Source: Geobacter sulfurreducens PCA (GTDB taxonomy: Bacteria; Desulfobacterota; Desulfuromonadia; Geobacterales; Geobacteraceae). From it: 32,000 nt of DNA. The notes below the pieces were generated by a model. That model made no database searches and was not told the DNA's origin. It saw only the letters and a list, made by a program, of their open reading frames with translations. The position numbers were made by a program, and so were the translations under genes. Location of the stretch: positions 1,020,001 through 1,052,000 of the forward strand of contig NC_002939.5 in the NCBI RefSeq assembly GCF_000007985.2, read 5' to 3'. Below are positions 14,607 to 24,743 of this stretch, piece after piece; the first letter of the stretch is position 1, and every line of letters starts with the position of its first letter.

Positions 14607-15653
14607 TTACGCCGTTGCCAAAAACTTTTCCCGGTCGAACGGCACATTGTTTTTCAGCATGTAGAAAATCGCTCGTGCCAGTTTGTGGGCAAGGATCGAA
14701 ATCGCTTTCCCTTTGCCATGAATCTTGACCAGTTTCTCCATCAGGATTTTTGCCTGGGGATTGTGGCGCACGAAGAACACAGCGGCCTCAGAGAAGGCCC
14801 ATTTCAAATGGACGTTGCCTATCTTGGAACCGCCGACCCCCTTTTTCTTTCCCGCTGATTCGTGGGCACATTTCACCAGCCTGCAGTAGGAAGAGAAGTC
14901 TTGCACGGTCGGGAAACGATTTATGTCATGGATCTCGTAGAGCATTACCAGGCCCAGCACCTTTCCCACGCCGTTGATTGAGCGCAGAAGTTTGAGGGCA
15001 TGCAGGTTGTGTTGCCGGGCCGTTTTTTCTATGTCCGGTTCGAGGACATTGATGACATCGTCAAAGGCGTCGATCATGGCAACGTCAATTTCGATAATTT
15101 TCCTCACTTCCGGATCGTGGAAGAGCTGAGCTACTTCATGGCGGTTCTCTTCGACTCCGAGATCAATGCCAAGAGGAGCCAGATTATATTGGGTTACCGT
15201 GTTCTGGATGTGTGCCATAAGCTCAGCACGTTTTCTGACGAAAAAGTTCCGGCGGCGCAGGAGGTCCCGTGTTGCCCGCATTTCCGGCGGGTAGACGTAG
15301 GCTAAGGGAAACATGCCGCCGCGGAGCAGCACAGCAATCTTGTGGGCGTCAATCTTGTCGCTCTTTGCTTTGCCACCGTGGACTGCCTTCATGTAAAGGG
15401 CGTGACCGAGCACAAACTCGATCTTTTCATTACGGCAAAGGTCTGCCAGCCAATACCATGCGAACATGCATTCCACGCCGACAACCAAGTCCTCCCGGTA
15501 GGGTGCCACGAGGCGAAGGAAGCTCTCAGGATTGCAGTTGATTTCGCGATGAACCAGCACGGTCCCTTCCGAGTCGAGAATGCAGACGTACTTTTTTCGG
15601 GCATGAAGATCAATTCCGCAGTAGTACTTGTGAGTCTTAGTGTAAAATCTCAT
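14607..15653 (-). CDS. IS110-family (DEDD) transposase
   Basis: 348 aa from the ATG at 15653 (MRFYTKTHKYYCGIDLHARKKYVCILD...) with an AAGGAGG SD. It has an N-terminal RuvC-like DEDD region and a C-terminal Transposase_20-like region (GVGKVLGLVMLYEIHDINRF). Confidence 0.9.
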   Translation of the reverse strand: MRFYTKTHKYYCGIDLHARKKYVCILDSEGTVLVHREINCNPESFLRLVAPYREDLVVGVECMFAWYWLADLCRNEKIEFVLGHALYMKAVHGGKAKSDKIDAHKIAVLLRGGMFPLAYVYPPEMRATRDLLRRRNFFVRKRAELMAHIQNTVTQYNLAPLGIDLGVEENRHEVAQLFHDPEVRKIIEIDVAMIDAFDDVINVLEPDIEKTARQHNLHALKLLRSINGVGKVLGLVMLYEIHDINRFPTVQDFSSYCRLVKCAHESAGKKKGVGGSKIGNVHLKWAFSEAAVFFVRHNPQAKILMEKLVKIHGKGKAISILAHKLARAIFYMLKNNVPFDREKFLATA

Positions 15654-15732
15654 GTGTAAGGCCTCCTTTGGAGAATGGGTTTCGCCAAAGTCCAGCATAC
15701 GCTAATCCGTATGCCCAGAGGGGGCCTTACAC
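15654..15732 (-). promoter_or_regulatory. Structured leader of the IS110 transposase
   Basis: On the minus-strand RNA, GTGTAAGGCCCCCT (about 15731-15718) pairs 13 of 14 with AGGAGGCCTTACAC (15667-15654), which contains the SD. This long-range stem sequesters the SD. It encloses two inner hairpins: GCATACG-N6-CGTATGC and CTTTGG-N13-CCAAAG. Confidence 0.5.
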
Positions 15733-16178
15733 AGTATCCCATTATTGAGCAGTTAGTGTGATGCATATCCAATGGCCCCTGGGGGGCGGGCCAAGCTAAC
15801 AACCTGGAACTACATAATAATAGCCCTCAAAGAACGTATTTTCAGGCCTTAGGGCCTCATTTTCGTCGGCCAAATTGGCATTGTAAGGCTCCGCCTTCTC
15901 GAATCAATCCCCCTCACACATCACTAACACCCTTTCATAGATCAATTACCATCCCCGTTCAATCAGGAAAACCCCTATACTCCGCGGTTGTGAGCCTCGT
16001 TTCAGGAGATTATGTAACCAGAGCCGTTTCGATGACCTTGATGGATGCAGGCTGCGTAAGGAGCGCGGTCTCCACGGGGTCAAAACTAGATGTTTTCGCA
16101 AAAATGCAAAAATAACTGGATTTTTTTTTGGTGTTTACATACTATCCTCCGTGACTCCGCACAGATGGAAGAGGCCCC

Positions 16179-18146
16179 ATGCGCCGGTATCTTTTCAGCT
16201 TCATGACCAATCTAAAGCTCCGCTGGAAGATGCTGGTACTGGTGATGCCGCTGGTGATCATTCCCATTTTCGTGGTGGGCGGGGTGATCGGCTACATCTC
16301 CACCAAGCAGGCCTACCGGGGGATCACCCAGACCTCCCGGGACGACCTGGAGCACATGGCCAGCTTCACCATCGATCTCCTCAATTCCCACTACCAGCAG
16401 TTCCAGGTCTACAAGCAGGACAAGATGCGGACCGTGCACCTGGAACTGGCCACCCTCACCAATCTTTCCTACAACCTGGTCGAGGCCCAGGACCGCCAGT
16501 ACCGGGCCGGCAAGGTGGACCTGCGCACCGCCAAGGAGGAGGCCCGCAAGGCCCTCAAGCGGGTCAGCGTCGGCATGACCGGCTATATCTACGCCATGAC
16601 CACCAAGGGGCTGCTGGAAGTCCACGTGGCGCGGGAAGGGGAGAACGTCTACGACGAGAAGGACGAGAACGGTCGCCCCTTTATCCGGATCATGTGCGAG
16701 AACGCGCTCAAGGCCAAGCCGGGGGAGGTGCTCTATATCGTCTACCCCTGGCGCAACGAGGTGCTGGGAGACAAGTATCCCCGCAAAAAGGTGGTGGCTT
16801 ACCGGTACTTCCCCCAGTGGGACTGGATCATCGCGTCGGGCGGCTATCTGGAGGAGACCTATGAGGACGTGGCCTTCGAGCGCCGCTCCTTTGCCGAGCT
16901 GAAGGAGAAGATCCGCAGCAAGAAGGTGGGGGAGACCGGCTACATCTTCTGCATGGACGATACGGGGACCTTTACCATCCACCCCTCGGGCGAGGGGCAG
17001 AATTTCCTCAATGCGGTCGACTCCAGCGGCAACAAGTTCATCAAGGAGATGGTGGAGAAGAAGCGCGGGTGGATTCGCTACCCCTGGCGCAACAAGGGAG
17101 ACGCGTCGCCGCGGATGAAGCTCGTGCGCTACGACTACTTCAAGCCTTGGGGATGGATCGTGGCGGTCGGGTCCTATGAGGACGAGTTCTACCGGGAGGC
17201 CAACAAGATCCGGGGGCGCATCGTCACCACCATGACGCTGCTGACCATCCTCACCGGCCTCGTGGCAACGGGGCTGGTTTTTCTCGCCGCCAAGGTGTTC
17301 ACCGACCCCATCAACTACATGATCGACGTGATCAGGAAGGTAAAGAAGGGGCGTCTGGACGAGCAGATGGAGGTTGACACCGGCGATGAGCTGGGCGAGC
17401 TTGCCGGCGCCTTCAACCGGATGACCACCATCATCCGCCAGAACAAGGAGATGGAGGCGAGCCTGGCTCAGCAGGGGAAGATGGCATCGCTCGGCGTCCT
17501 CTCTTCGGGCGTTGCCCATGAGATCAACAACCCCCTGGGGGTGATCCTCGGCTATGCCTCGTACCTGGAGTCGAAGATCACCGAAGAGGACCCGACCTAC
17601 AAATATATCCACGAGATCAAGCGCGAGAGCAAGCGGTGCAAGAAGATCGTCCAGGATCTCCTCTCCTACGCCCGGACCCCCAAGCCCGCCCTGGAGCCCA
17701 CCGACATCAACGACCTCCTGGGTCAGATCGTGGGGTTTGCCGCCAACCACACCGACATGCACCACGTGACCGTGGTCCGGGAGTTCGCGCCCGACTTGCC
17801 GCCGGTCATGGCCGACGGCGACCAGATCCGCCAGGTGGCCATCAACCTGATCCTCAATGCCGGCTCCGCCATGACCGCCGGCGGCGTCCTTACCGTCCGG
17901 ACGTTCCTGGACCAGGAGCAGTACGTGAACATCGTGTTCAGCGACACCGGCTGCGGCATCCCCCGCGAGGATCAGGAGCGGATATTCGAGCCGTTCTTCA
18001 CCACCAAGACCAAGGGGACCGGCCTGGGGCTCGCCATTACGCGCCAGATCGTGGAGATGCACCACGGCCGCATCGCCATCGACAGCGAGGTGGGGCGCGG
18101 CACCGACGTTACCGTGCGCCTGCCCCTGGAGCCGGAAGAGCTGTAG
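16179..18146 (+). CDS. Sensor histidine kinase with tandem Cache-type periplasmic domains, HAMP, HisKA and HATPase_c
   Basis: 655-aa ORF. Two TM segments bracket a roughly 300-aa region with a duplicated YPWRN...W(D/G)WI motif. The HAMP region is DELGELAGAFNRM, the H-box is GVAHEINNPL, and the G-boxes are DTGCGI and GTGLGLAI. Confidence 0.9.
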   Translation: MRRYLFSFMTNLKLRWKMLVLVMPLVIIPIFVVGGVIGYISTKQAYRGITQTSRDDLEHMASFTIDLLNSHYQQFQVYKQDKMRTVHLELATLTNLSYNLVEAQDRQYRAGKVDLRTAKEEARKALKRVSVGMTGYIYAMTTKGLLEVHVAREGENVYDEKDENGRPFIRIMCENALKAKPGEVLYIVYPWRNEVLGDKYPRKKVVAYRYFPQWDWIIASGGYLEETYEDVAFERRSFAELKEKIRSKKVGETGYIFCMDDTGTFTIHPSGEGQNFLNAVDSSGNKFIKEMVEKKRGWIRYPWRNKGDASPRMKLVRYDYFKPWGWIVAVGSYEDEFYREANKIRGRIVTTMTLLTILTGLVATGLVFLAAKVFTDPINYMIDVIRKVKKGRLDEQMEVDTGDELGELAGAFNRMTTIIRQNKEMEASLAQQGKMASLGVLSSGVAHEINNPLGVILGYASYLESKITEEDPTYKYIHEIKRESKRCKKIVQDLLSYARTPKPALEPTDINDLLGQIVGFAANHTDMHHVTVVREFAPDLPPVMADGDQIRQVAINLILNAGSAMTAGGVLTVRTFLDQEQYVNIVFSDTGCGIPREDQERIFEPFFTTKTKGTGLGLAITRQIVEMHHGRIAIDSEVGRGTDVTVRLPLEPEEL

Positions 18147-18165
18147 CGTTAATATCAGTTGAGAG

Positions 18166-19569
18166 GTGCCGATCGTGTCAGATAAAAAGCGCATCATGCT
18201 TATCGATAACGAAGAAGGGCTCTGCCGCATGATGGAGGCGGTGCTCGCCGACAGCGGCTATGCCGTGAAGGGGTATACCCGCTCCTTCGAGGCGGTGGAG
18301 GAGTTCAAGGCCGGCGATTGGGATCTGGTGGTGAGCGACATCAAGATGCCCGGCATGGACGGTCTTGAGGTGCTCCAGCGGATCAAGGCCAAGGATCCCC
18401 TTGTCCCGGTCATCATGATCACCGCCTACGCCACGGTGGAGACCTCGATCCAGGCGCTCCGGCGCGGGGCCTACGACATGGTCACCAAGCCCTTCGAGCC
18501 CGAGGAGCTCCTCTACCGGGTCAAGAACGCCCTCAAGCACACCCAGCTTCTGGAAGAGAACCGGGAACTGCGGGAAGAGCTGGTGGGCAAGTTCCGCTTC
18601 GACAACATCATCGGCGCATCCACCGGCCTCAAGGATGTGCTGGACAAGGTTGAGAAGATCGCTATCCGCGACACGTCGGTCCTGATCACCGGCGAGTCCG
18701 GGACCGGCAAGGAGCTCATCGCCCAGGCCATCCATTACAACTCGCTGCGCAAGGAAAAGAAGTTCGTGGCCATCAACTGCGGGGCGCTGCCCGAATCGCT
18801 GCTGGAGAGCGAGTTGTTCGGCTACCGCAAGGGGGCCTTTACCGGCGCCAAGGAGAACCGCCAGGGGCTCCTGGAGGCGGCCGACGGCGGCACGCTCTTT
18901 CTGGACGAGGCGGGCAACCTCCCCATGAACGTGCAGAAGACGCTGCTCCGCTTTCTCCAGGAACAGGAGTTTCTGCGCATCGGCGACACCACCCCCACCA
19001 AGGTCGACGTGCGGATCATCTCCGCCACCAATGCCGAGCTGAAGGAGGCGGTCAAGAGCGGTGCCTTCCGCGAGGATCTTTACTACCGGCTCAACGTGCT
19101 GAATCTTCACCTGCCCCCCCTGCGGGAGCGGCGGGCCGACATCCCGCTGCTGGCGGCCCACTTCATCACGCTGCAGAACAAGAAATTCGGCACCGCCATC
19201 AAGGGGCTCGCCCCCGACGCGTTGGAGGCGGTCATGGAGTTCTCCTGGCCGGGGAATATCCGCCAGCTCAAGAACGTGATCGAAGCCTGCACCGCCATGG
19301 AAAACGGTGATTATCTCTCGCTGGCCGTGCTTTCGCAGTTCATCGAGATATCTCACCATGTGCCCGGGGAAGAAGGGGACACGGCCGGCGATGTGGATGA
19401 GAGCGACTATTCCCAGGCCCTGTCGCGGTTCGAGGTCGACTACCTGAAGGGGCTCCTGCGCAAGAATCGCGGCAACGTGGAGGCTGCGGCCCGCGATGCG
19501 GGGATGAACATGGCCACCATCTACCGCAAGCTCAAGAAGTACAATATCCGCCGCGAAGACTACGCCTGA
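18166..19569 (+). CDS. Sigma-54-dependent response regulator (NtrC family: REC, AAA+ and Fis-type HTH)
   Basis: It has a Walker A (GESGTGKE), the GAFTGA sigma-54 contact loop and a C-terminal HTH (NVEAAARDAGMNMATIYRKLKKY). The start is uncertain: GTG at 18166, or GTG at 18175, which has better SD spacing. Confidence 0.92.
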   Translation: MPIVSDKKRIMLIDNEEGLCRMMEAVLADSGYAVKGYTRSFEAVEEFKAGDWDLVVSDIKMPGMDGLEVLQRIKAKDPLVPVIMITAYATVETSIQALRRGAYDMVTKPFEPEELLYRVKNALKHTQLLEENRELREELVGKFRFDNIIGASTGLKDVLDKVEKIAIRDTSVLITGESGTGKELIAQAIHYNSLRKEKKFVAINCGALPESLLESELFGYRKGAFTGAKENRQGLLEAADGGTLFLDEAGNLPMNVQKTLLRFLQEQEFLRIGDTTPTKVDVRIISATNAELKEAVKSGAFREDLYYRLNVLNLHLPPLRERRADIPLLAAHFITLQNKKFGTAIKGLAPDALEAVMEFSWPGNIRQLKNVIEACTAMENGDYLSLAVLSQFIEISHHVPGEEGDTAGDVDESDYSQALSRFEVDYLKGLLRKNRGNVEAAARDAGMNMATIYRKLKKYNIRREDYA

Positions 19570-19718
19570 CGGTTTCAGGGGCCCCTCTCGGGGCCGTCCT
19601 CTCTTGTGCCGGATTACCCATGGCGTTCCACCTCCTCTCACGGTCGAAGCGGGTTCGCATTTCTGCAAAAGTTCCCCTCTCGACCGTTGCAGCCCTGCAA
19701 TCCCTTACCTTGTTCGTT

Positions 19719-19733
19719 GTAACATGTTGAAAT
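19719..19733 (+). promoter_or_regulatory. Candidate upstream activator site, copy 1 (GTAACATGTTGAAAT)
   Basis: It is a direct repeat of TTAACATGCTGAAAA at 19884-19898, and CGTTGT precedes both copies. They lie about 215 and 50 nt upstream of the sigma-54 promoter. The function is inferred. Confidence 0.25.
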
Positions 19734-19883
19734 GATGGGTGGTTGTCGGACCAGCCCCCTGCATGAGGCAAACCCGTGCCGTCCCCGTAGCCTCTCCGGC
19801 GCTCCCGGTACCCTCGCACGACTGCAAAAACGACGTTCTAGCCTGTTCCTCCCAAATACTCCCCATGGTTCCCGTTGTCATGG

Positions 19884-19898
19884 TTAACATGCTGAAAA
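19884..19898 (+). promoter_or_regulatory. Candidate upstream activator site, copy 2 (TTAACATGCTGAAAA), followed by an A/T-rich tract
   Basis: See copy 1. The A/T tract AATTAAAAAAACAATAAAAG (19905-19924) lies between this site and the -24/-12 element, where an IHF-type bend is often found. Confidence 0.25.
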
Positions 19899-19937
19899 TA
19901 CACAATTAAAAAAACAATAAAAGCCTATTCACGTAAT

Positions 19938-19953
19938 TGGTATACAGGTTGCT
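19938..19953 (+). promoter_or_regulatory. Sigma-54 (-24/-12) promoter TGGTATACAGGTTGCT
   Basis: The spacing TGG-N8-TTGC is exactly that of the consensus TGGCACG-N4-TTGCW. It lies 126 nt upstream of the first ORF of the operon and directly downstream of a sigma-54 activator gene. Confidence 0.6.
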
Positions 19954-20078
19954 CTAGGGATAGACAGTTACTCCTTCATTGCATGGGACAGGGTCGGGGA
20001 TGGTGACGACCAGATGATCCGACTCTCATCCCATGCGCGTCAATCGGACCGGACACGGTTTAAGAGATAGAGGTATCC

Positions 20079-20270
20079 ATGAAGGACGGAATAGTCTGCC
20101 CCTTCTACGGTAAGAGCGATGACATCTGCGATGTGGGATGCGGGTATATCTCGCCCCACGACGTCAACATGATCATCAAGTTCTGCAGCTGCCGGTACCG
20201 CGAGTGCATGAAGTACCAGGAACTGGCCGAGCGGTTTCCCCACGACATCCTCACACCCGTCAAGTGTTGA
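20079..20270 (+). CDS. Small cysteine-rich protein (63 aa, 7 Cys), uncharacterised
   Basis: The sequence is MKDGIVCPFYGKSDDICDVGCGYISPHDVNMIIKFCSCRYRECMKYQELAERFPHDILTPVKC. A GAGG SD lies 6 nt upstream. It is the first gene after the sigma-54 promoter. Confidence 0.6.
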   Translation: MKDGIVCPFYGKSDDICDVGCGYISPHDVNMIIKFCSCRYRECMKYQELAERFPHDILTPVKC

Positions 20271-20291
20271 CCATACAAGGAGGAAGACACC

Positions 20292-20414
20292 ATGCTGTAC
20301 AACATGAGCCTGCATCTTCACGGACCGTACATTCTCTATGCCCTCACATTCGTTGCAGCGTTAACGGTTATATCGTTCGTAAAGGAGAAGAGAGATGAGC
20401 GAAAAAGAGCTTGA
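20292..20414 (+). CDS. Possible 40-aa single-TM peptide (not in the supplied track)
   Basis: My own translation gives MLYNMSLHLHGPYILYALTFVAALTVISFVKEKRDERKRA. A strong AAGGAGGA SD lies 8 nt upstream. It overlaps the next ORF start by 20 nt. Confidence 0.4.
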   Translation: MLYNMSLHLHGPYILYALTFVAALTVISFVKEKRDERKRA

Positions 20415-20646
20415 ACTGCTGGCAAGGATCGAGGAGCTCGAGCGGCACACCTGGCGCAACAGTGCCATCCTTCGGGCGGTCGCCATGGTTGCGGGTACGG
20501 CCATGATCGGCATCATCGTCGCCTCCGGCGTGGTCGGCGGCGGTCACGGCAGCCACTGGACCGGCCCCGCATGGAACACCATGTGGCTCTACGGCCTGTT
20601 CGCGGCCAACGCGGTGTCCATGTTCTGGACCACCCACAAGGATTAG
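20395..20646 (+). CDS. Small membrane protein (83 aa: coiled N-terminus plus 2 TM helices), uncharacterised
   Basis: AAGGAG SD. The sequence runs MSEKELELLARIEELERH and then has two hydrophobic helices. Confidence 0.6.
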   Translation: MSEKELELLARIEELERHTWRNSAILRAVAMVAGTAMIGIIVASGVVGGGHGSHWTGPAWNTMWLYGLFAANAVSMFWTTHKD

Positions 20647-20658
20647 GAGGAACACGCC

Positions 20659-21711
20659 ATGCCAATGAGTATCAAGAACGCAATTCTGCTCCTCGTGGTG
20701 GTGACCCTCTGCGCCGCCTTCAGCATGAGGATCTTCCAGGGACTCGACGAGATGATGGGCGATCAGTACTGGGTGGTGGACGTCTCCCAGGGTGATCACG
20801 GCTGGTACGGCATGGGGCTGCTGCCCCACGTGGTGAAGATGCCCAAGGACATCGTCAAGGCCCTCAACACCGATGCCGACCCGACCAACAACGTGGAGAT
20901 CTATGCCCAGGCGGGCGATTTCGCCGGCGATTCGGTCTACGGCATCTGCTTCGGGATTCCGCTCATCATGTTCCTGATCTGGTTCGCCTTCATCATAGGC
21001 TTCCCGGACCGGGTGGACCCCTATCTGTTGCCACGCAAGATCTTCACCATTGCGGTGATCATCACCTGCTCGGTGGTAGTCAACCTGTTCCTGATGAGAA
21101 TCACCGCCGACTTCGCCACCGACCCCATGGCGCGCATCGCCAACGTGGCGGGCAATCACGCTTCGCTTCTGTTCCACAACGCCGGCATCTGGTTCGCCAT
21201 TCTCTTCTCGGCCCTGGGGACCCACAGCCACTCCATGCACGAAGTGGCAGCCCCTGACAGCCGCCAGTGGCAGACCCAGGCCAATGAGAAGTTCTCCTGG
21301 ATGTTCATCCTGCTCGGCGCCGTGACCGTGCTGGAAGTGTCGCTGGTCAACAACAAGCTTGCCCTCCCCGACGCGGCGGTTGACTACTCGGTCTGGATCA
21401 TCTGGGTGGTGATCTTCATGCGGATGTTCGGCTTCTCGCCCCGCTACTGGATCAAGCGCGGCCGCGGCATCTCCATCATGGTGGTCGGCACGGCGCTGAC
21501 CCTGGGTGCGTTCTACCTGCTGGAGCGTTCCACCGGCACCCTGGGCGCCGGCTTCGCCTCGCCGGTTCTGGCCAAGGCCCTCGGCGTCGAAAACCAGAAC
21601 ATCGGCCTCTCGCTCATGATCTCCATCTACCTCATCTTCTGGATGGAGTTCGCCGCGGCGATCCGCATGAACGGCCCGGTGAAGAAGCCTGTGGAGCAGA
21701 AGATTCCGTAG
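20659..21711 (+). CDS. Polytopic integral membrane protein (350 aa, about 8 TM helices), uncharacterised
   Basis: AGGAGG SD. Hydrophobic segments occur regularly through the protein, and I recognise no family motif. A strong terminator follows. Confidence 0.75.
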   Translation: MPMSIKNAILLLVVVTLCAAFSMRIFQGLDEMMGDQYWVVDVSQGDHGWYGMGLLPHVVKMPKDIVKALNTDADPTNNVEIYAQAGDFAGDSVYGICFGIPLIMFLIWFAFIIGFPDRVDPYLLPRKIFTIAVIITCSVVVNLFLMRITADFATDPMARIANVAGNHASLLFHNAGIWFAILFSALGTHSHSMHEVAAPDSRQWQTQANEKFSWMFILLGAVTVLEVSLVNNKLALPDAAVDYSVWIIWVVIFMRMFGFSPRYWIKRGRGISIMVVGTALTLGAFYLLERSTGTLGAGFASPVLAKALGVENQNIGLSLMISIYLIFWMEFAAAIRMNGPVKKPVEQKIP

Positions 21712-21737
21712 GCAGTCTCACCAAAGCGTACGTTAAA

Positions 21738-21765
21738 GGCGACGGTAAAACCGTCGCCTTTTTTT
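21738..21765 (+). terminator. Rho-independent terminator
   Basis: GGCGACGG-TAAAA-CCGTCGCC followed by TTTTTTT. Confidence 0.8.
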
Positions 21766-21856
21766 ATGGCGTCCACTCTAGACCTGATGCCGATAAGCCG
21801 ATATAACTACATTAGTAGGCTCCATGTTCGCTGCAGGTACGAAAAGGGAGAAAATC

Positions 21857-23227
21857 ATGAACGGCTGGGAGGTTTTCAAGGTATTGTTGTCGGTGGCGAT
21901 GGTGATGGCAGTGGCGCTGCCGGAACCCGCGCGGGCCGTTCCAGCCGCTGTCGCCGCCTCTGTGGACAGCACGGCGACCATTCTGTCAGCCGGCTTTGAG
22001 TCTCTGGTCCAGGATCCGCCTGCCGGCTGGAGCCTGGTGGACAATGCCGGCACCGGAGCCCTGTGGCGCTTCGACGATCCGGCAAAGAGGGGCAACAACA
22101 CCGGGGGGACCGGCGGTTTTGCCATTGCAGATAGCGACTATGCCGGCGCCGTCAACATGGATACGGAGCTTCGGACCCCGCTCCTGGATCTGAGCGGATA
22201 TGAAACGGTCACGCTGAGGTTCGAGACCTTGTTCGAACATGAAGCCGGCGAGACTGCTGCCGTGGAGTTGAGCACGAACGGCGGCGCCGGACCCTGGCAG
22301 CCTCTCTGGAGCAGGAGCGGAGGCAACTATGGTCCCGCCACGGAAGAACTGGACCTCACCTCCCTTGCGGCCGGCAAGCCAAACATCATGATCCGCTTTC
22401 ACTACTACGGTGCCAACTACGCCTGGTACTGGAAAGTGGATGATGTGGCACTGACCGGCATCCCCCGCGCACAGCATCAGCTCGCCGTGACCGTCAACGG
22501 CAGTGGTACGGTAGCAAGCTCTCCTGCGGGGATTTCCTGCCCGGCGACCACCTGCAGCGCGTTGTTCTATGACGGCCTCCCGGTGACGCTGACGGCAACG
22601 CCCGCTGCGGATTACGTTTTTTCCAGCTGGTCGGGAGCCTGCACCGGCACCGGCCCCTGCGTGGTCACCCTGGGGGGCGCTGCGGCCGTGACGGCTACCT
22701 TTGTGCCGAGCACCCGCAATCTGAACGTGACGGTTTCCGGCGCCGGACAGGGGACCGTCACCAGTGTTCCGGCCGGAATCGCCTGCTCGGCCGGCAGCTG
22801 CAACGGAGCCTTCGATACGGGAAGCCAGGTGGAGCTCATTGCCACGCCGTCCACGGGTTCGGTCTTCGCGGGCTGGTCGGGCGACTGCACCGGCACCGGC
22901 GCCTGTACTCCGACCATGACCGCCGACCGGAACGTCGGCGCCGCGTTCGACCCCGCACTAACGGTAGAACTCACCATCGGCACCGCCACGACGCTCCACA
23001 CGACCCTGACGGCAGCCATGGCAGCCATTGCCAATGGCTCTGCTGCCGCCATCAAGGCCAGGGCCATGGAGTTCCCGGAGAGCCTGGCCATCTCCGGCGG
23101 AAAATCCATCGTATTCTACGGCGGATACGCCGAAGGCTTCGGCAGCGTTGCCGGGTACTCGGTCCTGAGGGGGACGGTGACCGTCGGGGTCGGGACGCTC
23201 ACGGCCAGCAATCTGGCGGTTCGCTAA
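21857..23227 (+). CDS. Secreted protein: choice-of-anchor-J/MAM-like N-terminal domain plus divergent InlB B-repeat-type Ig-like repeats
   Basis: I chose the ATG at 21857 because of the GGGAG SD and the signal peptide MNGWEVFKVLLSVAMVMAVALPEPARA. Three repeats follow the pattern VTV.G.G.G.V.S.PAGI.C...C...F..G..V.L.ATP...S.F.GWSG.CTGTG.C. Confidence 0.8.
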   Translation: MNGWEVFKVLLSVAMVMAVALPEPARAVPAAVAASVDSTATILSAGFESLVQDPPAGWSLVDNAGTGALWRFDDPAKRGNNTGGTGGFAIADSDYAGAVNMDTELRTPLLDLSGYETVTLRFETLFEHEAGETAAVELSTNGGAGPWQPLWSRSGGNYGPATEELDLTSLAAGKPNIMIRFHYYGANYAWYWKVDDVALTGIPRAQHQLAVTVNGSGTVASSPAGISCPATTCSALFYDGLPVTLTATPAADYVFSSWSGACTGTGPCVVTLGGAAAVTATFVPSTRNLNVTVSGAGQGTVTSVPAGIACSAGSCNGAFDTGSQVELIATPSTGSVFAGWSGDCTGTGACTPTMTADRNVGAAFDPALTVELTIGTATTLHTTLTAAMAAIANGSAAAIKARAMEFPESLAISGGKSIVFYGGYAEGFGSVAGYSVLRGTVTVGVGTLTASNLAVR

Positions 23228-23390: not shown

Positions 23391-24743
23391 ATGCAAACGA
23401 GAACGAGGATAACCCTCGGCCTGGTGGTTGCCATACTCTGCCTCACCATCGGCGTGGCCGCCGGATGGCGCTACTATAACCCTGCTGCCGACCAGGTCGG
23501 TGCCGAGCACCTGAGACTGTTCCGCGAGGTCGTCTCGATCGTGCGGAGCAGTTACGTGGAAGAGGTGAGCGGGAAAAAGCTGCTGGAAGGGGCCATCAAC
23601 GGCATGCTCGCCTCGCTGGACCCCCACAGCTCGTATCTTCCGCCGGAACCCTTCACCGAAATGAAGACGGAGATATCGGGGTCCTTCGGCGGCCTCGGCA
23701 TCGAGATCTCCATGCGTGACGGCAAACTGACCGTAGTTGCCCCCATCGAGGATACTCCCGCCTGGCGGGCCGGAATCCAGTCGGGCGACCACATCTGGAA
23801 GATCGACGATACTCCCACCCGCGGTCTCACCATCACCCAGGCGGTCAAGCAGATGAGGGGCGAGAAGGGGACCCAGGTCTCCCTCTCGATTCTGCGGAAC
23901 GGGAACGGAAAACCTCTCGTGTTCCCCCTGGTGCGGGACATCATCAAGACCAGGAGCCTCAAATCCCGGACTCTGGAGCCGGGTTACGGCTATGTCAGGA
24001 TAAGCCAGTTCCAAGAGCGGACAGGGGATGACTTTGCCGCTGCTCTTGCCAAGCTTCGGTCAGATAACGGCGGGTCCCTCAAGGGGCTCGTGCTCGATCT
24101 GCGGAATAATCCCGGCGGCCTTCTGGATGCCGCAGTGGCGGTGGCGGGGCGCTTCGTGGGTGAACGCCTCGACAACGGCCTCATCGTCTATACCGAAGGG
24201 CGCGAGCACTTTGCCAAGCGAAGCTACAGCGCCACCATCGGCGAGAAAGAGCCGCGCTACCCCCTTGTCGTCCTTATCAACGGCGGCAGCGCCAGCGCCT
24301 CGGAGATCGTGGCCGGTGCCCTCCAGGACCACGGCCGCGCCGTCATCATGGGAACCACCAGCTTCGGCAAGGGATCGGTTCAGACGGTGGTCCCCCTCAA
24401 GGATGGCGCCGGTCTCAAGCTGACCACGGCCCGTTACTACACCCCCAAGGGACGTTCGATCCAGGCACGGGGCATCGAGCCCGACATCGTCGTAGAACGG
24501 GCCGGGTTCAAGGAACTGCCGGACAAGGGCAGGGCCGGATTCCTCGAAAAGGATTTGGACAACCATCTGTCCGGGGCGGAATCGGGCGAGGGGGAAAAGA
24601 CCCCCGAGCAGGACGTGAAAAAGCTCCCGGCGGCGCCGGCGACTCCCGAACACGAGGTTGACAAGGATTATCAGCTTCTTCGGGCCCTTGAACTGCTCAA
24701 GGGCTGGGATGCCATGCGCAAGGTGGCCACCGCGAAGCACTAG
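23391..24743 (+). CDS. ctpA: Carboxy-terminal processing protease (S41 family, PDZ domain)
   Basis: 450-aa ORF with an N-terminal anchor and a PDZ region. The S41 catalytic region is LINGGSASASEIVAGALQDHGRAVIMGTTSFGKGSVQTV. Confidence 0.92.
   Translation: MQTRTRITLGLVVAILCLTIGVAAGWRYYNPAADQVGAEHLRLFREVVSIVRSSYVEEVSGKKLLEGAINGMLASLDPHSSYLPPEPFTEMKTEISGSFGGLGIEISMRDGKLTVVAPIEDTPAWRAGIQSGDHIWKIDDTPTRGLTITQAVKQMRGEKGTQVSLSILRNGNGKPLVFPLVRDIIKTRSLKSRTLEPGYGYVRISQFQERTGDDFAAALAKLRSDNGGSLKGLVLDLRNNPGGLLDAAVAVAGRFVGERLDNGLIVYTEGREHFAKRSYSATIGEKEPRYPLVVLINGGSASASEIVAGALQDHGRAVIMGTTSFGKGSVQTVVPLKDGAGLKLTTARYYTPKGRSIQARGIEPDIVVERAGFKELPDKGRAGFLEKDLDNHLSGAESGEGEKTPEQDVKKLPAAPATPEHEVDKDYQLLRALELLKGWDAMRKVATAKH

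What the first reader, a model, noticed from the sequence alone, without database searches (positions are those of the whole stretch)
16179..21765. Self-contained sigma-54 module: Cache kinase plus NtrC-type activator, -24/-12 promoter, and an operon of four uncharacterised small or membrane proteins
The elements lie in this order:
- a double-Cache/HAMP histidine kinase;
- a GAFTGA-containing enhancer-binding response regulator;
- two direct repeats (GTAACATGTTGAAAT and TTAACATGCTGAAAA);
- an A/T-rich tract;
- a correctly spaced TGG-N8-TTGC promoter at 19938-19953;
- four tightly packed ORFs, each with a strong SD: a 63-aa 7-Cys protein, a 40-aa TM peptide, an 83-aa 2-TM protein and a 350-aa polytopic membrane protein (about 8 TM);
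- a clean terminator.

I recognise none of the four products. The architecture suggests a ligand-sensing circuit that switches on a membrane complex of unknown function, such as a transporter, a redox or metal-handling complex, or an envelope-stress device.

This is the best candidate in the window for a coherent undescribed system outside the mobile island.
Basis: partly seen in the sequence, partly recalled or inferred. Interest (0 to 1): 0.7.

Follow-up and report, generated by a model that had tools for sequence, protein, structure and literature searches.

The report
Acetate-linked sigma-54 operon, unknown membrane complex
In Geobacter sulfurreducens, a carboxylate-sensing kinase and a sigma-54 activator switch on a very highly conserved four-gene operon whose two core membrane proteins belong to an undescribed family that sits beside acetate or lactate uptake and activation genes in bacteria and archaea, so it is most likely a new kind of small-carboxylate transporter.

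Summary
All listed elements are present at the stated coordinates. The genes are G. sulfurreducens GSU0962 (kinase), GSU0963 (activator), GSU0964 (63 aa), an unannotated 40-aa ORF, GSU0966 (83 aa) and GSU0967 (350 aa).

The -24/-12 promoter is conserved upstream of the operon in about 75 of 78 Geobacterales loci. It was already predicted in 2009. They are TTGCA-N4-TGCAAA-type palindromes, present in 74 of 75 loci and also upstream of the kinase gene.

The four products match no Pfam, NCBIfam or PDB entry. The core is the 83-aa + 350-aa pair:
- In Thermoplasmata-labelled metagenome genomes it directly follows acetate-CoA ligase.
- In a Firmicutes lineage it follows a lactate-type MFS transporter.
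- In 27 of the 80 Geobacterales loci fetched via the 350-aa protein it is followed by that same MFS type.

In some Geobacterales a neighbouring SatP/YaaH-family acetate-transporter gene carries the same palindromes and promoter. Both Cache modules keep the C2/C3-carboxylate-binding residues. Published proteomics shows GSU0963 about 18-fold higher on acetate than on H2.

Best reading: an acetate (C2-C3 monocarboxylate)-induced sigma-54 regulon whose main target is a new transporter-like complex. The regulation is ordinary. The cargo family is new. Transport itself is untested.

The parts
16095..16110 (.). Palindrome TCGCAAAAATGCAAA, 70-85 nt upstream of the kinase start codon. Probable binding site of the regulator on its own operon (autoregulation).
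   Evidence: the pattern gives 5 strand-matches in the window against 0.36 expected; the same palindrome lies upstream of the kinase gene in about 15 loci that have the same gene order. Sequence.
16179..18146 (+). GSU0962, sensor histidine kinase: TM1, two tandem sCache_2-like periplasmic modules, TM2, HAMP, HisKA, HATPase_c.
   Evidence: Locus tag. The nearest solved domains bind pyruvate, acetate or propionate. The carboxylate tetrads Y136/H149/Y189/R202 and Y255/H268/Y301/K314 are invariant in 23 orthologues.
18166..19569 (+). GSU0963, NtrC-type enhancer-binding response regulator: REC, AAA+ domain with GAFTGA, Fis-type HTH. The annotated 464-aa form would start about 9 nt further in.
   Evidence: About 18-fold more abundant in acetate-grown than in H2-grown cells in published proteomics.
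19654..19669 (.). Distal upstream activator palindrome TCGCATTTCTGCAAA, 283 nt upstream of the -24 element.
19720..19732 (+).
   Evidence: A minor positional peak at -195 to -218 is seen in about 11 loci.
19814..19828 (.). Proximal upstream activator palindrome TCGCACGACTGCAAA, 124 nt upstream of the -24 element.
19885..19930 (+). Copy 2 of the direct repeat (TAACATGCTGAAA) plus the A/T-rich tract. Probable IHF-type bending site between the activator sites and the promoter (inference).
   Evidence: Related TAACATRCTGWAAT elements lie at -42 to -54 in 36 of 75 loci. On the reverse strand it matches 7 of 9 positions of WATCAANNNNTTR (read from the sequence).
19938..19953 (+). Sigma-54 promoter TGGTAT-N5-TTGCT (GG at -24, GC at -12).
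   Evidence: Conserved in about 75 of 78 loci, as TGGTAY-N5-TTGCT or TGGCAC-N5-(G/A)TGCT. Predicted earlier as Promoter 69, PromScan score 83.
19964..20078 (+). Structured 5' leader of about 115 nt. It holds the near-invariant GUUACUCCUU (19967-19976, anti-SD-like) and a long hairpin (19981-20036) with apical GGUGACGACC. The 5' CUCCUUCAU is predicted to pair with the AUGAAGG start region.
   Evidence: -50.1 kcal/mol, z = -4.2; a comparable hairpin in 30 loci; mean z = -2.84; compensatory changes; no Rfam family.
20079..20270 (+). GSU0964, 63-aa soluble Cys-rich protein found only in Geobacterales. C7, C17, C21, C36 and C43 are invariant or nearly so.
   Evidence: The AF2 model has low confidence. 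No PDB or Pfam match. Absent from the distant clades.
20292..20414 (+). 40-aa single-TM protein (MLY...KEKRDERKRA), unannotated in strain PCA. It overlaps the next gene by 20 nt.
   Evidence: A conserved ORF in 71 of 79 loci. Listed as '449 Op 2'.
20395..20646 (+). GSU0966, 83-aa protein: a cytoplasmic helix plus 2 TM. Small subunit of the conserved core pair.
   Evidence: 83-99% identity across Geobacterales. Homologues of 77-82 aa precede the large subunit in the archaeal-type and Firmicutes clades. Among the 61 best-conserved Geobacter proteins.
20659..21711 (+). GSU0967, 350-aa membrane protein: 8 TM, N and C termini inside, small periplasmic beta domain at residues 34-90. Large subunit of the core pair.
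   Evidence: AF2 pLDDT 79, pTM 0.79. No structural or sequence relative in the PDB. Only 21 hits among 1.84 billion representative proteins.
21735..21761 (+). Intrinsic terminator: 12-bp stem followed by a T run.

Best explanation
This is a small-carboxylate (most likely acetate) responsive sigma-54 regulon.

Proposed mechanism, step by step:
1. GSU0962 senses a C2-C3 monocarboxylate in the periplasm with two sCache_2-type modules (inferred).
2. It phosphorylates GSU0963 (inferred from domain composition).
3. GSU0963 binds T(T/C)GCA-N4-TGCAAA palindromes about 124 and 283 bp upstream of the promoter (the sites are shown by conservation; binding is inferred).
4. With an IHF-type bend, it opens the RpoN promoter at 19938-19953 (inferred).
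5. It also binds upstream of its own operon (inferred from the site at 16095-16110).

The induced mRNA carries a structured leader whose 5' anti-SD stretch can mask the first ribosome-binding site. It encodes four proteins. The conserved core is the 83-aa two-TM protein plus the 350-aa eight-TM protein. I propose these form a two-subunit permease for acetate or a closely related monocarboxylate. This would be analogous in role and gene context to YjcH-ActP next to acs in E. coli. The 40-aa TM peptide and the 63-aa Cys-rich cytoplasmic protein would be Geobacterales-specific accessory or regulatory subunits.

My confidence by step: the regulatory wiring about 0.85, a monocarboxylate signal about 0.65, a transport function about 0.5.
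For: Regulation:
- The domain architectures fit a sensor kinase and an enhancer-binding regulator.
- The -24/-12 promoter is conserved in about 75 of 78 loci.
- Two to three palindromes at fixed distances occur in 74 of 75 loci, whether or not the kinase and regulator are adjacent.
- The palindrome is also found upstream of the kinase gene.
- The kinase and regulator stay adjacent in two different arrangements: upstream on the same strand, or downstream and convergent.

Signal:
- The nearest solved sensor domains are 4EXO (pyruvate), 4K08 (acetate) and 5G4Y/5G4Z (acetate/propionate).
- The Tyr-His-Tyr-Lys/Arg carboxylate tetrad is invariant in both modules of 23 orthologues.
- In L058, L037 and L040 a GPR1/FUN34/YaaH gene next to the operon carries the same palindromes and a TGGTAT-N5-TTGC promoter. 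In L023 the promoter is present but the upstream sequence is truncated.
- GSU0963 protein is 10^1.25-fold higher with acetate than with H2 as electron donor. It ranks 7th in a list headed by succinyl:acetate CoA-transferase.

Function of the core pair:
- In the clade labelled Thermoplasmata, every locus with enough upstream sequence (24 loci) has acetate-CoA ligase, then the small subunit, then the large subunit. The ligase scores 862 bits on NF003313 against a cut-off of 729.
- All 5 Firmicutes-type loci have an SfMCT-type MFS, then the small subunit, then the large subunit.
- In 27 of the 80 Geobacterales loci fetched via the 350-aa protein (plus Oryzomonas rubra, L082) the same MFS type follows the 350-aa gene. 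Geomonas and Citrifermentans have DUF485-ActP and DUF4212-SSF downstream. Several loci have a fatty-acid-CoA ligase upstream.
- The 350-aa protein is polytopic. Its invariant polar residues are Asp, Arg, Lys, Ser and Thr, with no invariant Cys or His.
Against: - There are no transport or binding data.
- The pair co-occurs with three established carboxylate transporter families (MFS-MCT, SSF/ActP, SatP). It could therefore be an accessory or something else induced alongside them.
- The AF2 fold matches no known transporter: best Foldseek E about 1, TM-score below 0.2.
- Only a weak internal repeat was detected (hhalign probability 40%).
- The kinase GSU0962 itself was unchanged between acetate and H2 (log10 ratio 0.12).
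- The four products were not found in the stored part of that proteome table.
- The operon appears only in the predicted-promoter file of the RpoN study, not in its other supplementary files.
- The kinase and regulator are more than 6 kb away in about half of the species.
- Each distant clade is a single lineage. The context evidence therefore amounts to about three independent observations.
- The Cys-rich 63-aa protein has no explained role.
Confidence: 0.5

Rival explanations
1. The regulon is the same, but the complex is not a permease. It would be an acetate-induced membrane module with another job: an accessory or chaperone subunit set for the co-located MCT, SatP or ActP transporters, a carboxylate exporter or weak-acid protection device, or a co-sensor that feeds back on the kinase.
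For: - The pair almost always sits beside an established carboxylate transporter.
- Its fold is unlike any solved transporter.
- The very high conservation of the 83-aa protein, 83-99% across genera, resembles an interaction-constrained subunit.
Against: - In the archaeal-type clade the only neighbours in the same transcription unit are acetate-CoA ligase and the pair, with no other transporter.
- In G. sulfurreducens and G. pickeringii the operon stands alone.
- The distant clades lack the kinase, so a co-sensor role cannot be the ancestral function.
Confidence: 0.25
2. It is a permease, but its substrate is another small carboxylate rather than acetate: lactate, pyruvate, propionate, or a short- or medium-chain fatty acid.
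For: - The adjacent MFS passes the NCBIfam L-lactate transporter (SfMCT) model.
- Several Geobacterales loci have a fatty-acid-CoA ligase family gene upstream.
- G. pickeringii has aldehyde and acyl-CoA dehydrogenases upstream.
- sCache_2 domains with the same tetrad bind acetate, propionate, pyruvate and lactate with differing preferences.
Against: - The archaeal-type partner is an acetate-CoA ligase equivalog.
- The shared regulon includes a SatP/YaaH-family gene.
- The regulator is acetate-responsive in vivo.
- Acetate is the universal substrate of Geobacterales, which fits the family's universal retention there (established physiology).
Confidence: 0.15
3. It is a redox or metal-handling membrane complex, one of the reader's alternatives, with the Cys-rich 63-aa protein as a metal or Fe-S subunit.
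For: Five conserved Cys (three invariant, two at 90% or more) in the 63-aa protein. A weak sub-threshold ZIP-family hit of the 83-aa protein, E = 0.06.
Against: - The 63-aa protein is missing from the Firmicutes and archaeal-type clades, so it is not part of the conserved core.
- The core proteins have no invariant Cys or His.
- No cytochrome, Fe-S or metal-resistance genes are consistently adjacent.
- All context points to carboxylate metabolism.
Confidence: 0.06
4. It is an envelope-stress device of the Psp type under sigma-54 control.
For: Sigma-54 dependence and small membrane proteins resemble pspF-pspABC in outline only.
Against: - The regulator is a receiver-domain NtrC type, not PspF. 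It scores 275.6 bits on the PspF model against a cut-off of 443.55.
- There are no PspA, PspB or PspC domains.
- The kinase has ligand-binding Cache modules with carboxylate residues.
- The context is metabolic.
Confidence: 0.03

Closest known systems
DctB-DctD / sigma-54 / dctA of rhizobia; also MifS-MifR/kgtP and AtoS-AtoC/atoDAEB
   Same: A periplasmic PDC/Cache-type sensor kinase and an NtrC-type enhancer-binding regulator lie next to a sigma-54-dependent operon for carboxylate uptake or use. There are tandem upstream activator sites, and a bend between the sites and the promoter. The best (sub-threshold) NCBIfam hits of the pair are AtoS and AtoC.
   Different: The kinase and regulator fall below every equivalog cut-off, so they are not orthologues of any named pair. 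The target is not DctA, KgtP or AtoE but an unclassified four-protein set. The predicted ligand class is C2-C3 monocarboxylates, not C4-dicarboxylates.
acs-yjcH-actP operon of E. coli (acetyl-CoA synthetase, small two-TM DUF485 protein, SSS acetate permease)
   Same: The gene-order logic in the archaeal-type clade is the same: acetate-CoA ligase, then a roughly 77-aa two-TM protein, then a polytopic membrane protein. The pairing of a small and a large subunit is also shared.
   Different: There is no sequence relationship. No SSF or DUF485 Pfam hit was found. A profile comparison with a neighbouring DUF4212 protein gave probability 0.2%. The large subunit has 8 TM rather than 13-14.
LrgAB/PftAB (two-subunit pyruvate transporter induced by LytST) and BtsSR-BtsT / YpdAB-YhjX pyruvate systems
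   Same: A two-component system senses an external monocarboxylate and induces a dedicated uptake system. PftAB is likewise a small-plus-large heteromer (from my own knowledge of the literature).
   Different: Those systems use LytTR-type regulators and sigma-70 promoters. No LrgA, LrgB or CstA domains are present here.
SatP/YaaH (GPR1/FUN34/YaaH, AceTr) acetate-succinate transporters
   Same: In four Geobacterales loci (L058, L037, L023, L040) a member of this family lies next to the operon behind the same sigma-54 promoter type; the palindromes are seen in the three with enough upstream sequence, so it appears to be co-regulated.
   Different: The products here are unrelated in sequence. G. 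sulfurreducens has no such gene in this window.

Membership tests
Sigma-54 (RpoN)-dependent promoter | GG and GC doublets exactly 10 bp apart (TGGCAC-N5-TTGCW), upstream of the regulated gene | tested here: met
   TGGTATACAGGTTGCT lies at 19938-19953. The same element with the same spacing is conserved in about 75 of 78 loci.
Sigma-54 (RpoN)-dependent promoter | Transcription requires RpoN and an enhancer-binding protein | not testable with these tools
   Only a computational prediction exists in the literature (Promoter 69).
Bacterial enhancer-binding protein, NtrC class | Receiver domain + AAA+ sigma-54 interaction domain with a GAFTGA loop + C-terminal Fis-type HTH | tested here: met
   PF00072, PF00158 (E = 7e-72), PF25601 and PF02954 all hit. 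GAFTGA is visible in the translation.
AtoS/AtoC, NtrB/NtrC, ZraS/ZraR and other named orthologue groups | Score above the NCBIfam equivalog cut-off | tested here: not met
   AtoC scores 453 against a cut-off of 714. AtoS scores 260 against 646. NtrC scores 418 against 559.
sCache_2 C2/C3-carboxylate sensor domains (PscD, McpP, Adeh_3718 type) | sCache_2 fold with the Tyr, His, Tyr and Lys residues that hydrogen-bond the carboxylate (PscD Y90/H103/Y143/K156) | tested here: met
   sCache_2 hits in two stretches. The residues align with 5G4Y and 4EXO. Both tetrads are invariant in 23 orthologues.
sCache_2 C2/C3-carboxylate sensor domains (PscD, McpP, Adeh_3718 type) | Measured binding of acetate, propionate, pyruvate or lactate | not testable with these tools
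   This needs ITC or a thermal-shift assay.
Known carboxylate transporter families (SSF/ActP, MFS, AceTr/SatP, LctP, LrgAB, CstA, TRAP, TTT) | Significant match of the 350-aa or 83-aa protein to the family profile or fold | tested here: not met
   No Pfam or NCBIfam hit at E <= 1 apart from noise. No PDB sequence hit. No Foldseek hit, best E about 1 and TM-score below 0.2.
DUF4212 small subunits of SSS permeases (DUF485 covered only by the Pfam scan) | Sequence or profile similarity of the 83-aa protein | tested here: not met
   hhalign against a neighbouring DUF4212 protein gave probability 0.2%. A Pfam scan of 12 family members found neither domain.
Riboswitch or other Rfam cis-regulatory RNA (for the 5' leader) | Match to an Rfam covariance model | tested here: not met
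   No hit in the leader even at E <= 10.
Phage-shock (Psp) system | PspF-type activator without a receiver domain, plus PspA/B/C effectors | tested here: not met
   The regulator has a receiver domain, and the PspF model score is below its cut-off. The products have no Psp domains.

The most novel reading that the evidence does not exclude
The 83-aa and 350-aa proteins (GSU0966 and GSU0967) found a structurally new family of two-subunit secondary transporters for acetate or C2-C3 monocarboxylates. The family is shared by Geobacterales, one Firmicutes lineage and Thermoplasmata-type archaea. In Geobacter it would be the acetate-inducible, sigma-54-controlled uptake route for the organism's principal electron donor. 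A Cys-rich cytoplasmic subunit and a structured anti-SD leader would add redox or translational control.
Probability: 0.4. Interest if true: 0.7.

Novelty: new variant of a known kind. Interest (0 to 1): 0.55.

Why it matters
Acetate is the main electron donor and carbon source of Geobacter in sediments, bioremediation and bioelectrochemical systems. GSU0966 is conserved as strongly as ribosomal proteins and ATP synthase subunits, yet it and its partners have no assigned function.

If the complex is the inducible acetate permease, or an essential part of acetate handling, three things follow:
- A gap in Geobacter metabolic models would be filled.
- A new transporter fold and family would be defined, with members in Archaea.
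- A cognate sensor, regulator, operator and promoter set responding to acetate would be available as a biosensor or expression switch.

The regulatory architecture itself is textbook and would not surprise a specialist.

Tried and rejected
- Pfam and NCBIfam scans of the four products found nothing. The only hits were sub-threshold noise such as ZIP, MSL2_3 and DctQ.
- Foldseek of the 350-aa AF2 model against the PDB gave no meaningful hit.
- Profile searches of the 350-aa and 63-aa families against PDB sequences found nothing.
- The AF2 model of the 63-aa protein had pLDDT 64, too poor for a fold search, so none was run.
- hhalign of the small subunit against DUF4212 found no relation.
- hhalign of the N half against the C half of the 350-aa protein gave only a weak hint of a TM2-3 / TM6-7 repeat (probability 40%). 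I do not rely on it.
- Rfam found nothing in the leader.
- MAFFT plus RNAalifold on all 26 leaders recovered only the 3-bp apical stem, because the stems differ in length. I replaced this with per-sequence folding and two subfamily alignments.
- I considered the direct repeats as activator sites. I rejected them in favour of the palindromes because only the palindromes are near-universal and also occur at the kinase and SatP promoters.
- Literature searches by GSU and Gmet locus tags found no functional study.
- The metagenome scan returned only the archaeal-type clade, so it added depth but no new independent lineage.

Full report
**Identity and observation.** The window is Geobacter sulfurreducens DNA. 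The 350-aa product is 100% identical to a G. sulfurreducens protein. Locus tags follow from published tables:
- kinase = GSU0962
- regulator = GSU0963
- 63-aa protein = GSU0964
- 40-aa ORF = unnamed '449 Op 2'
- 83-aa protein = GSU0966
- 350-aa protein = GSU0967

The domain architectures are as described. The direct repeat is real, with 2 copies against 0.06 expected. The bare -24/-12 pattern is not rarer than chance in 32 kb, with 2 found against 2.0 expected. Its significance therefore rests on conservation.

**Conservation of the operon.** I fetched 80 Geobacterales loci through the 350-aa protein; 158 species genomes encode a relative.
- The order 63-aa, 40-aa, 83-aa, 350-aa is kept wherever the contig reaches.
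- The 40-aa ORF is unannotated in strain PCA. It is a conserved single-TM peptide (MLY...KEKRDERKRA) in 71 of 79 loci.
- The 83-aa protein is 83-99% identical across genera, and the 350-aa protein is 78-88% identical.
- GSU0966 was already listed among the 61 best-conserved proteins of six Geobacter genomes, next to ribosomal proteins and ATP synthase subunits.

**Regulatory region.** A sigma-54 promoter precedes the 63-aa gene in about 75 of 78 loci. It takes two forms: TGGTAY-N5-TTGCT with a 110-140 nt leader (30 loci, including the window), or TGGCAC-N5-(G/A)TGCTGTATAC about 50 nt from the ATG (45 loci). Leang et al. 2009 had already predicted the G. sulfurreducens site as Promoter 69, PromScan score 83.

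They are palindromes T(T/C)GCA-N4-TGCAAA:
- They occur in 74 of 75 loci, usually as one copy near -100/-124 and one or two near -240/-284.
- In the window they lie at 19654-19669 and 19814-19828.
- A third lies at 16095-16110, 70-85 nt upstream of the kinase gene. About 15 other loci have a palindrome in that same position. This suggests autoregulation.

The proximal direct-repeat copy (19885-19897) corresponds to a degenerate TAACATRCTGWAAT element found at -42 to -54 in 36 of 75 loci. Together with the A/T tract, it most plausibly marks an IHF-type bend (inference).

Orthologues of the kinase and regulator lie upstream on the same strand in about 26 loci. They lie downstream and convergent in 9 loci. 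In the rest they are absent within 6 kb, yet the palindromes persist. The wiring therefore appears conserved even where linkage is lost.

**The leader.** In the 30 long-leader loci the transcript begins with a near-invariant GUUACUCCU, followed by a 45-60 nt hairpin. The stems of that hairpin differ between lineages, but its apex (GGUGACGAYC or GUUGGGAGGC) is kept.
- Folding is more stable than for dinucleotide shuffles. The mean z-score is -2.84, and 21 of 30 loci fall below -2. The short leaders give +0.63.
- Two subfamily alignments show 92% and 98% pairing, against 30-58% when the partner columns are slid. They contain 4 and 3 pairs with compensatory double changes.
- The 5' CUCCUU is predicted to pair with the SD/AUG region.
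- No Rfam family matches.

I read this as a lineage-specific translational clamp or stabiliser. Its trigger is unknown.

**What the products are.** None of the four matches Pfam or NCBIfam. An exhaustive HMMER search of 1.84 billion representative proteins found only 21 hits for the 350-aa protein. Five of these are full-length clusters at 30-57% identity. A profile of the distant ones retrieved 48 proteins, including genomes labelled Thermoplasmata archaeon and Firmicutes.

AF2 gives a fairly confident model of the 350-aa protein (pLDDT 79, pTM 0.79). It has eight TM helices, both termini inside and a small periplasmic beta domain. Foldseek finds nothing similar in the PDB, and sequence profiles find nothing either.

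Homologues of the 83-aa protein (77-82 aa) immediately precede the large subunit in both distant clades. The 63-aa and 40-aa proteins are absent there. The ancestral unit is therefore the small-plus-large pair.

**Functional context.** Three separate lineages point the same way.
1. In the Thermoplasmata-labelled clade, every locus with enough upstream sequence (24 loci) reads acetate-CoA ligase, then the small subunit, then the large subunit. The ligase passes the NCBIfam equivalog model at 862 bits against a cut-off of 729.
2. In all 5 Firmicutes-type loci, an MFS transporter that passes the SfMCT L-lactate transporter model directly precedes the pair. An operon for an aminotransferase, indolepyruvate oxidoreductase and an aryl-acid-CoA ligase lies beside them, and two of these loci also carry a lactate permease.
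3. In 27 of the 80 Geobacterales loci fetched via the 350-aa protein (plus Oryzomonas rubra, L082) the same MFS type directly follows the 350-aa gene. Geomonas and Citrifermentans carry DUF485-ActP and DUF4212-SSF just downstream. Several loci have a fatty-acid-CoA ligase upstream.

There is also a co-regulated neighbour. In four loci a GPR1/FUN34/YaaH (SatP-type acetate transporter family) gene beside the operon has its own TGGTAT-N5-TTGC promoter. Where the sequence reaches, it also has two or three copies of the same palindrome.

**The signal.** The kinase's two periplasmic modules are closest to 4EXO, 4K08 and 5G4Y. Brewster et al. 2016 describe these as binding pyruvate, acetate and acetate/propionate through a Tyr-His-Tyr-Lys set. 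Both modules of GSU0962 carry that set, and it is invariant in 23 orthologues. In published proteomics, GSU0963 is 10^1.25-fold (about 18-fold) more abundant with acetate than with H2 as donor. It ranks seventh in a list headed by succinyl:acetate CoA-transferase. The kinase itself was unchanged.

**Conclusion.** The regulatory logic is a well-known kind: a Cache kinase, an NtrC-type activator, IHF and sigma-54 driving a substrate-uptake operon, as in DctBD-dctA or AtoSC-ato. The signal is probably acetate or a close C2-C3 monocarboxylate.

The target is a previously undescribed membrane-protein family with no detectable relative. Its gene context mirrors acs-yjcH-actP. I consider a two-subunit carboxylate permease the most likely function, at about 0.5. 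The main rival is a non-transporting accessory or protective module in the same regulon. The redox/metal and envelope-stress readings lack support for the conserved core. The Cys-rich 63-aa protein remains unexplained.

Noticed in passing
window 19964-20078 (hairpin 19981-20036; GUUACUCCUU 19967-19976); also L001 7177-7295 and 28 other loci: Structured 5' leader with a near-invariant anti-SD-like 5' end and a long hairpin whose stems covary between species. It matches no Rfam family and is a candidate new cis-regulatory RNA. It is present only in the long-leader subgroup of Geobacterales.
   Followed up: partly
window 20292-20414: A conserved 40-aa single-TM ORF (MLY...KEKRDERKRA) overlaps the start of GSU0966 by 20 nt. 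It has no protein accession in the strain PCA record but is conserved in 71 of 79 loci.
   Followed up: yes
window 16095-16110: A third copy of the activator-type palindrome lies just upstream of the kinase gene. This implies autoregulation of GSU0962-GSU0963. The same arrangement is seen in about 15 other species.
   Followed up: partly
L058 3259-4192; L037 3553-4179; L040 7120-8010; L023 126-755: In some Geobacterales a SatP/YaaH-family gene next to the operon has the same palindromes and its own sigma-54 promoter. The regulon is therefore larger than the four-gene operon.
   Followed up: partly
window 14607-15698 (- strand): An IS110-family transposase (DEDD_Tnp_IS110 + Transposase_20) ends about 400 nt upstream of the kinase's palindrome. 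In G. pickeringii the upstream neighbours are instead aldehyde and acyl-CoA dehydrogenases. The left flank in G. sulfurreducens has therefore been rearranged.
   Followed up: no
window 21824-23227 and 23391-24743: The downstream genes encode a secreted protein with divergent InlB B-repeat domains and a CtpA-type S41 protease. These flanks are not conserved with the operon in other genera.
   Followed up: no
group-B loci, e.g. L045 and L016, immediately 3' of the -12 element: The short-leader promoters share an extended motif, TGGCAC-N5-(G/A)TGCTGTATAC. The conserved GTATAC after the -12 element is unexplained.
   Followed up: no
L044 (contig DATNCC010000101.1): A genome labelled Dongiaceae (Alphaproteobacteria) carries a typical Geobacterales operon at 80% identity. 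This is probably a binning error rather than horizontal transfer.
   Followed up: no
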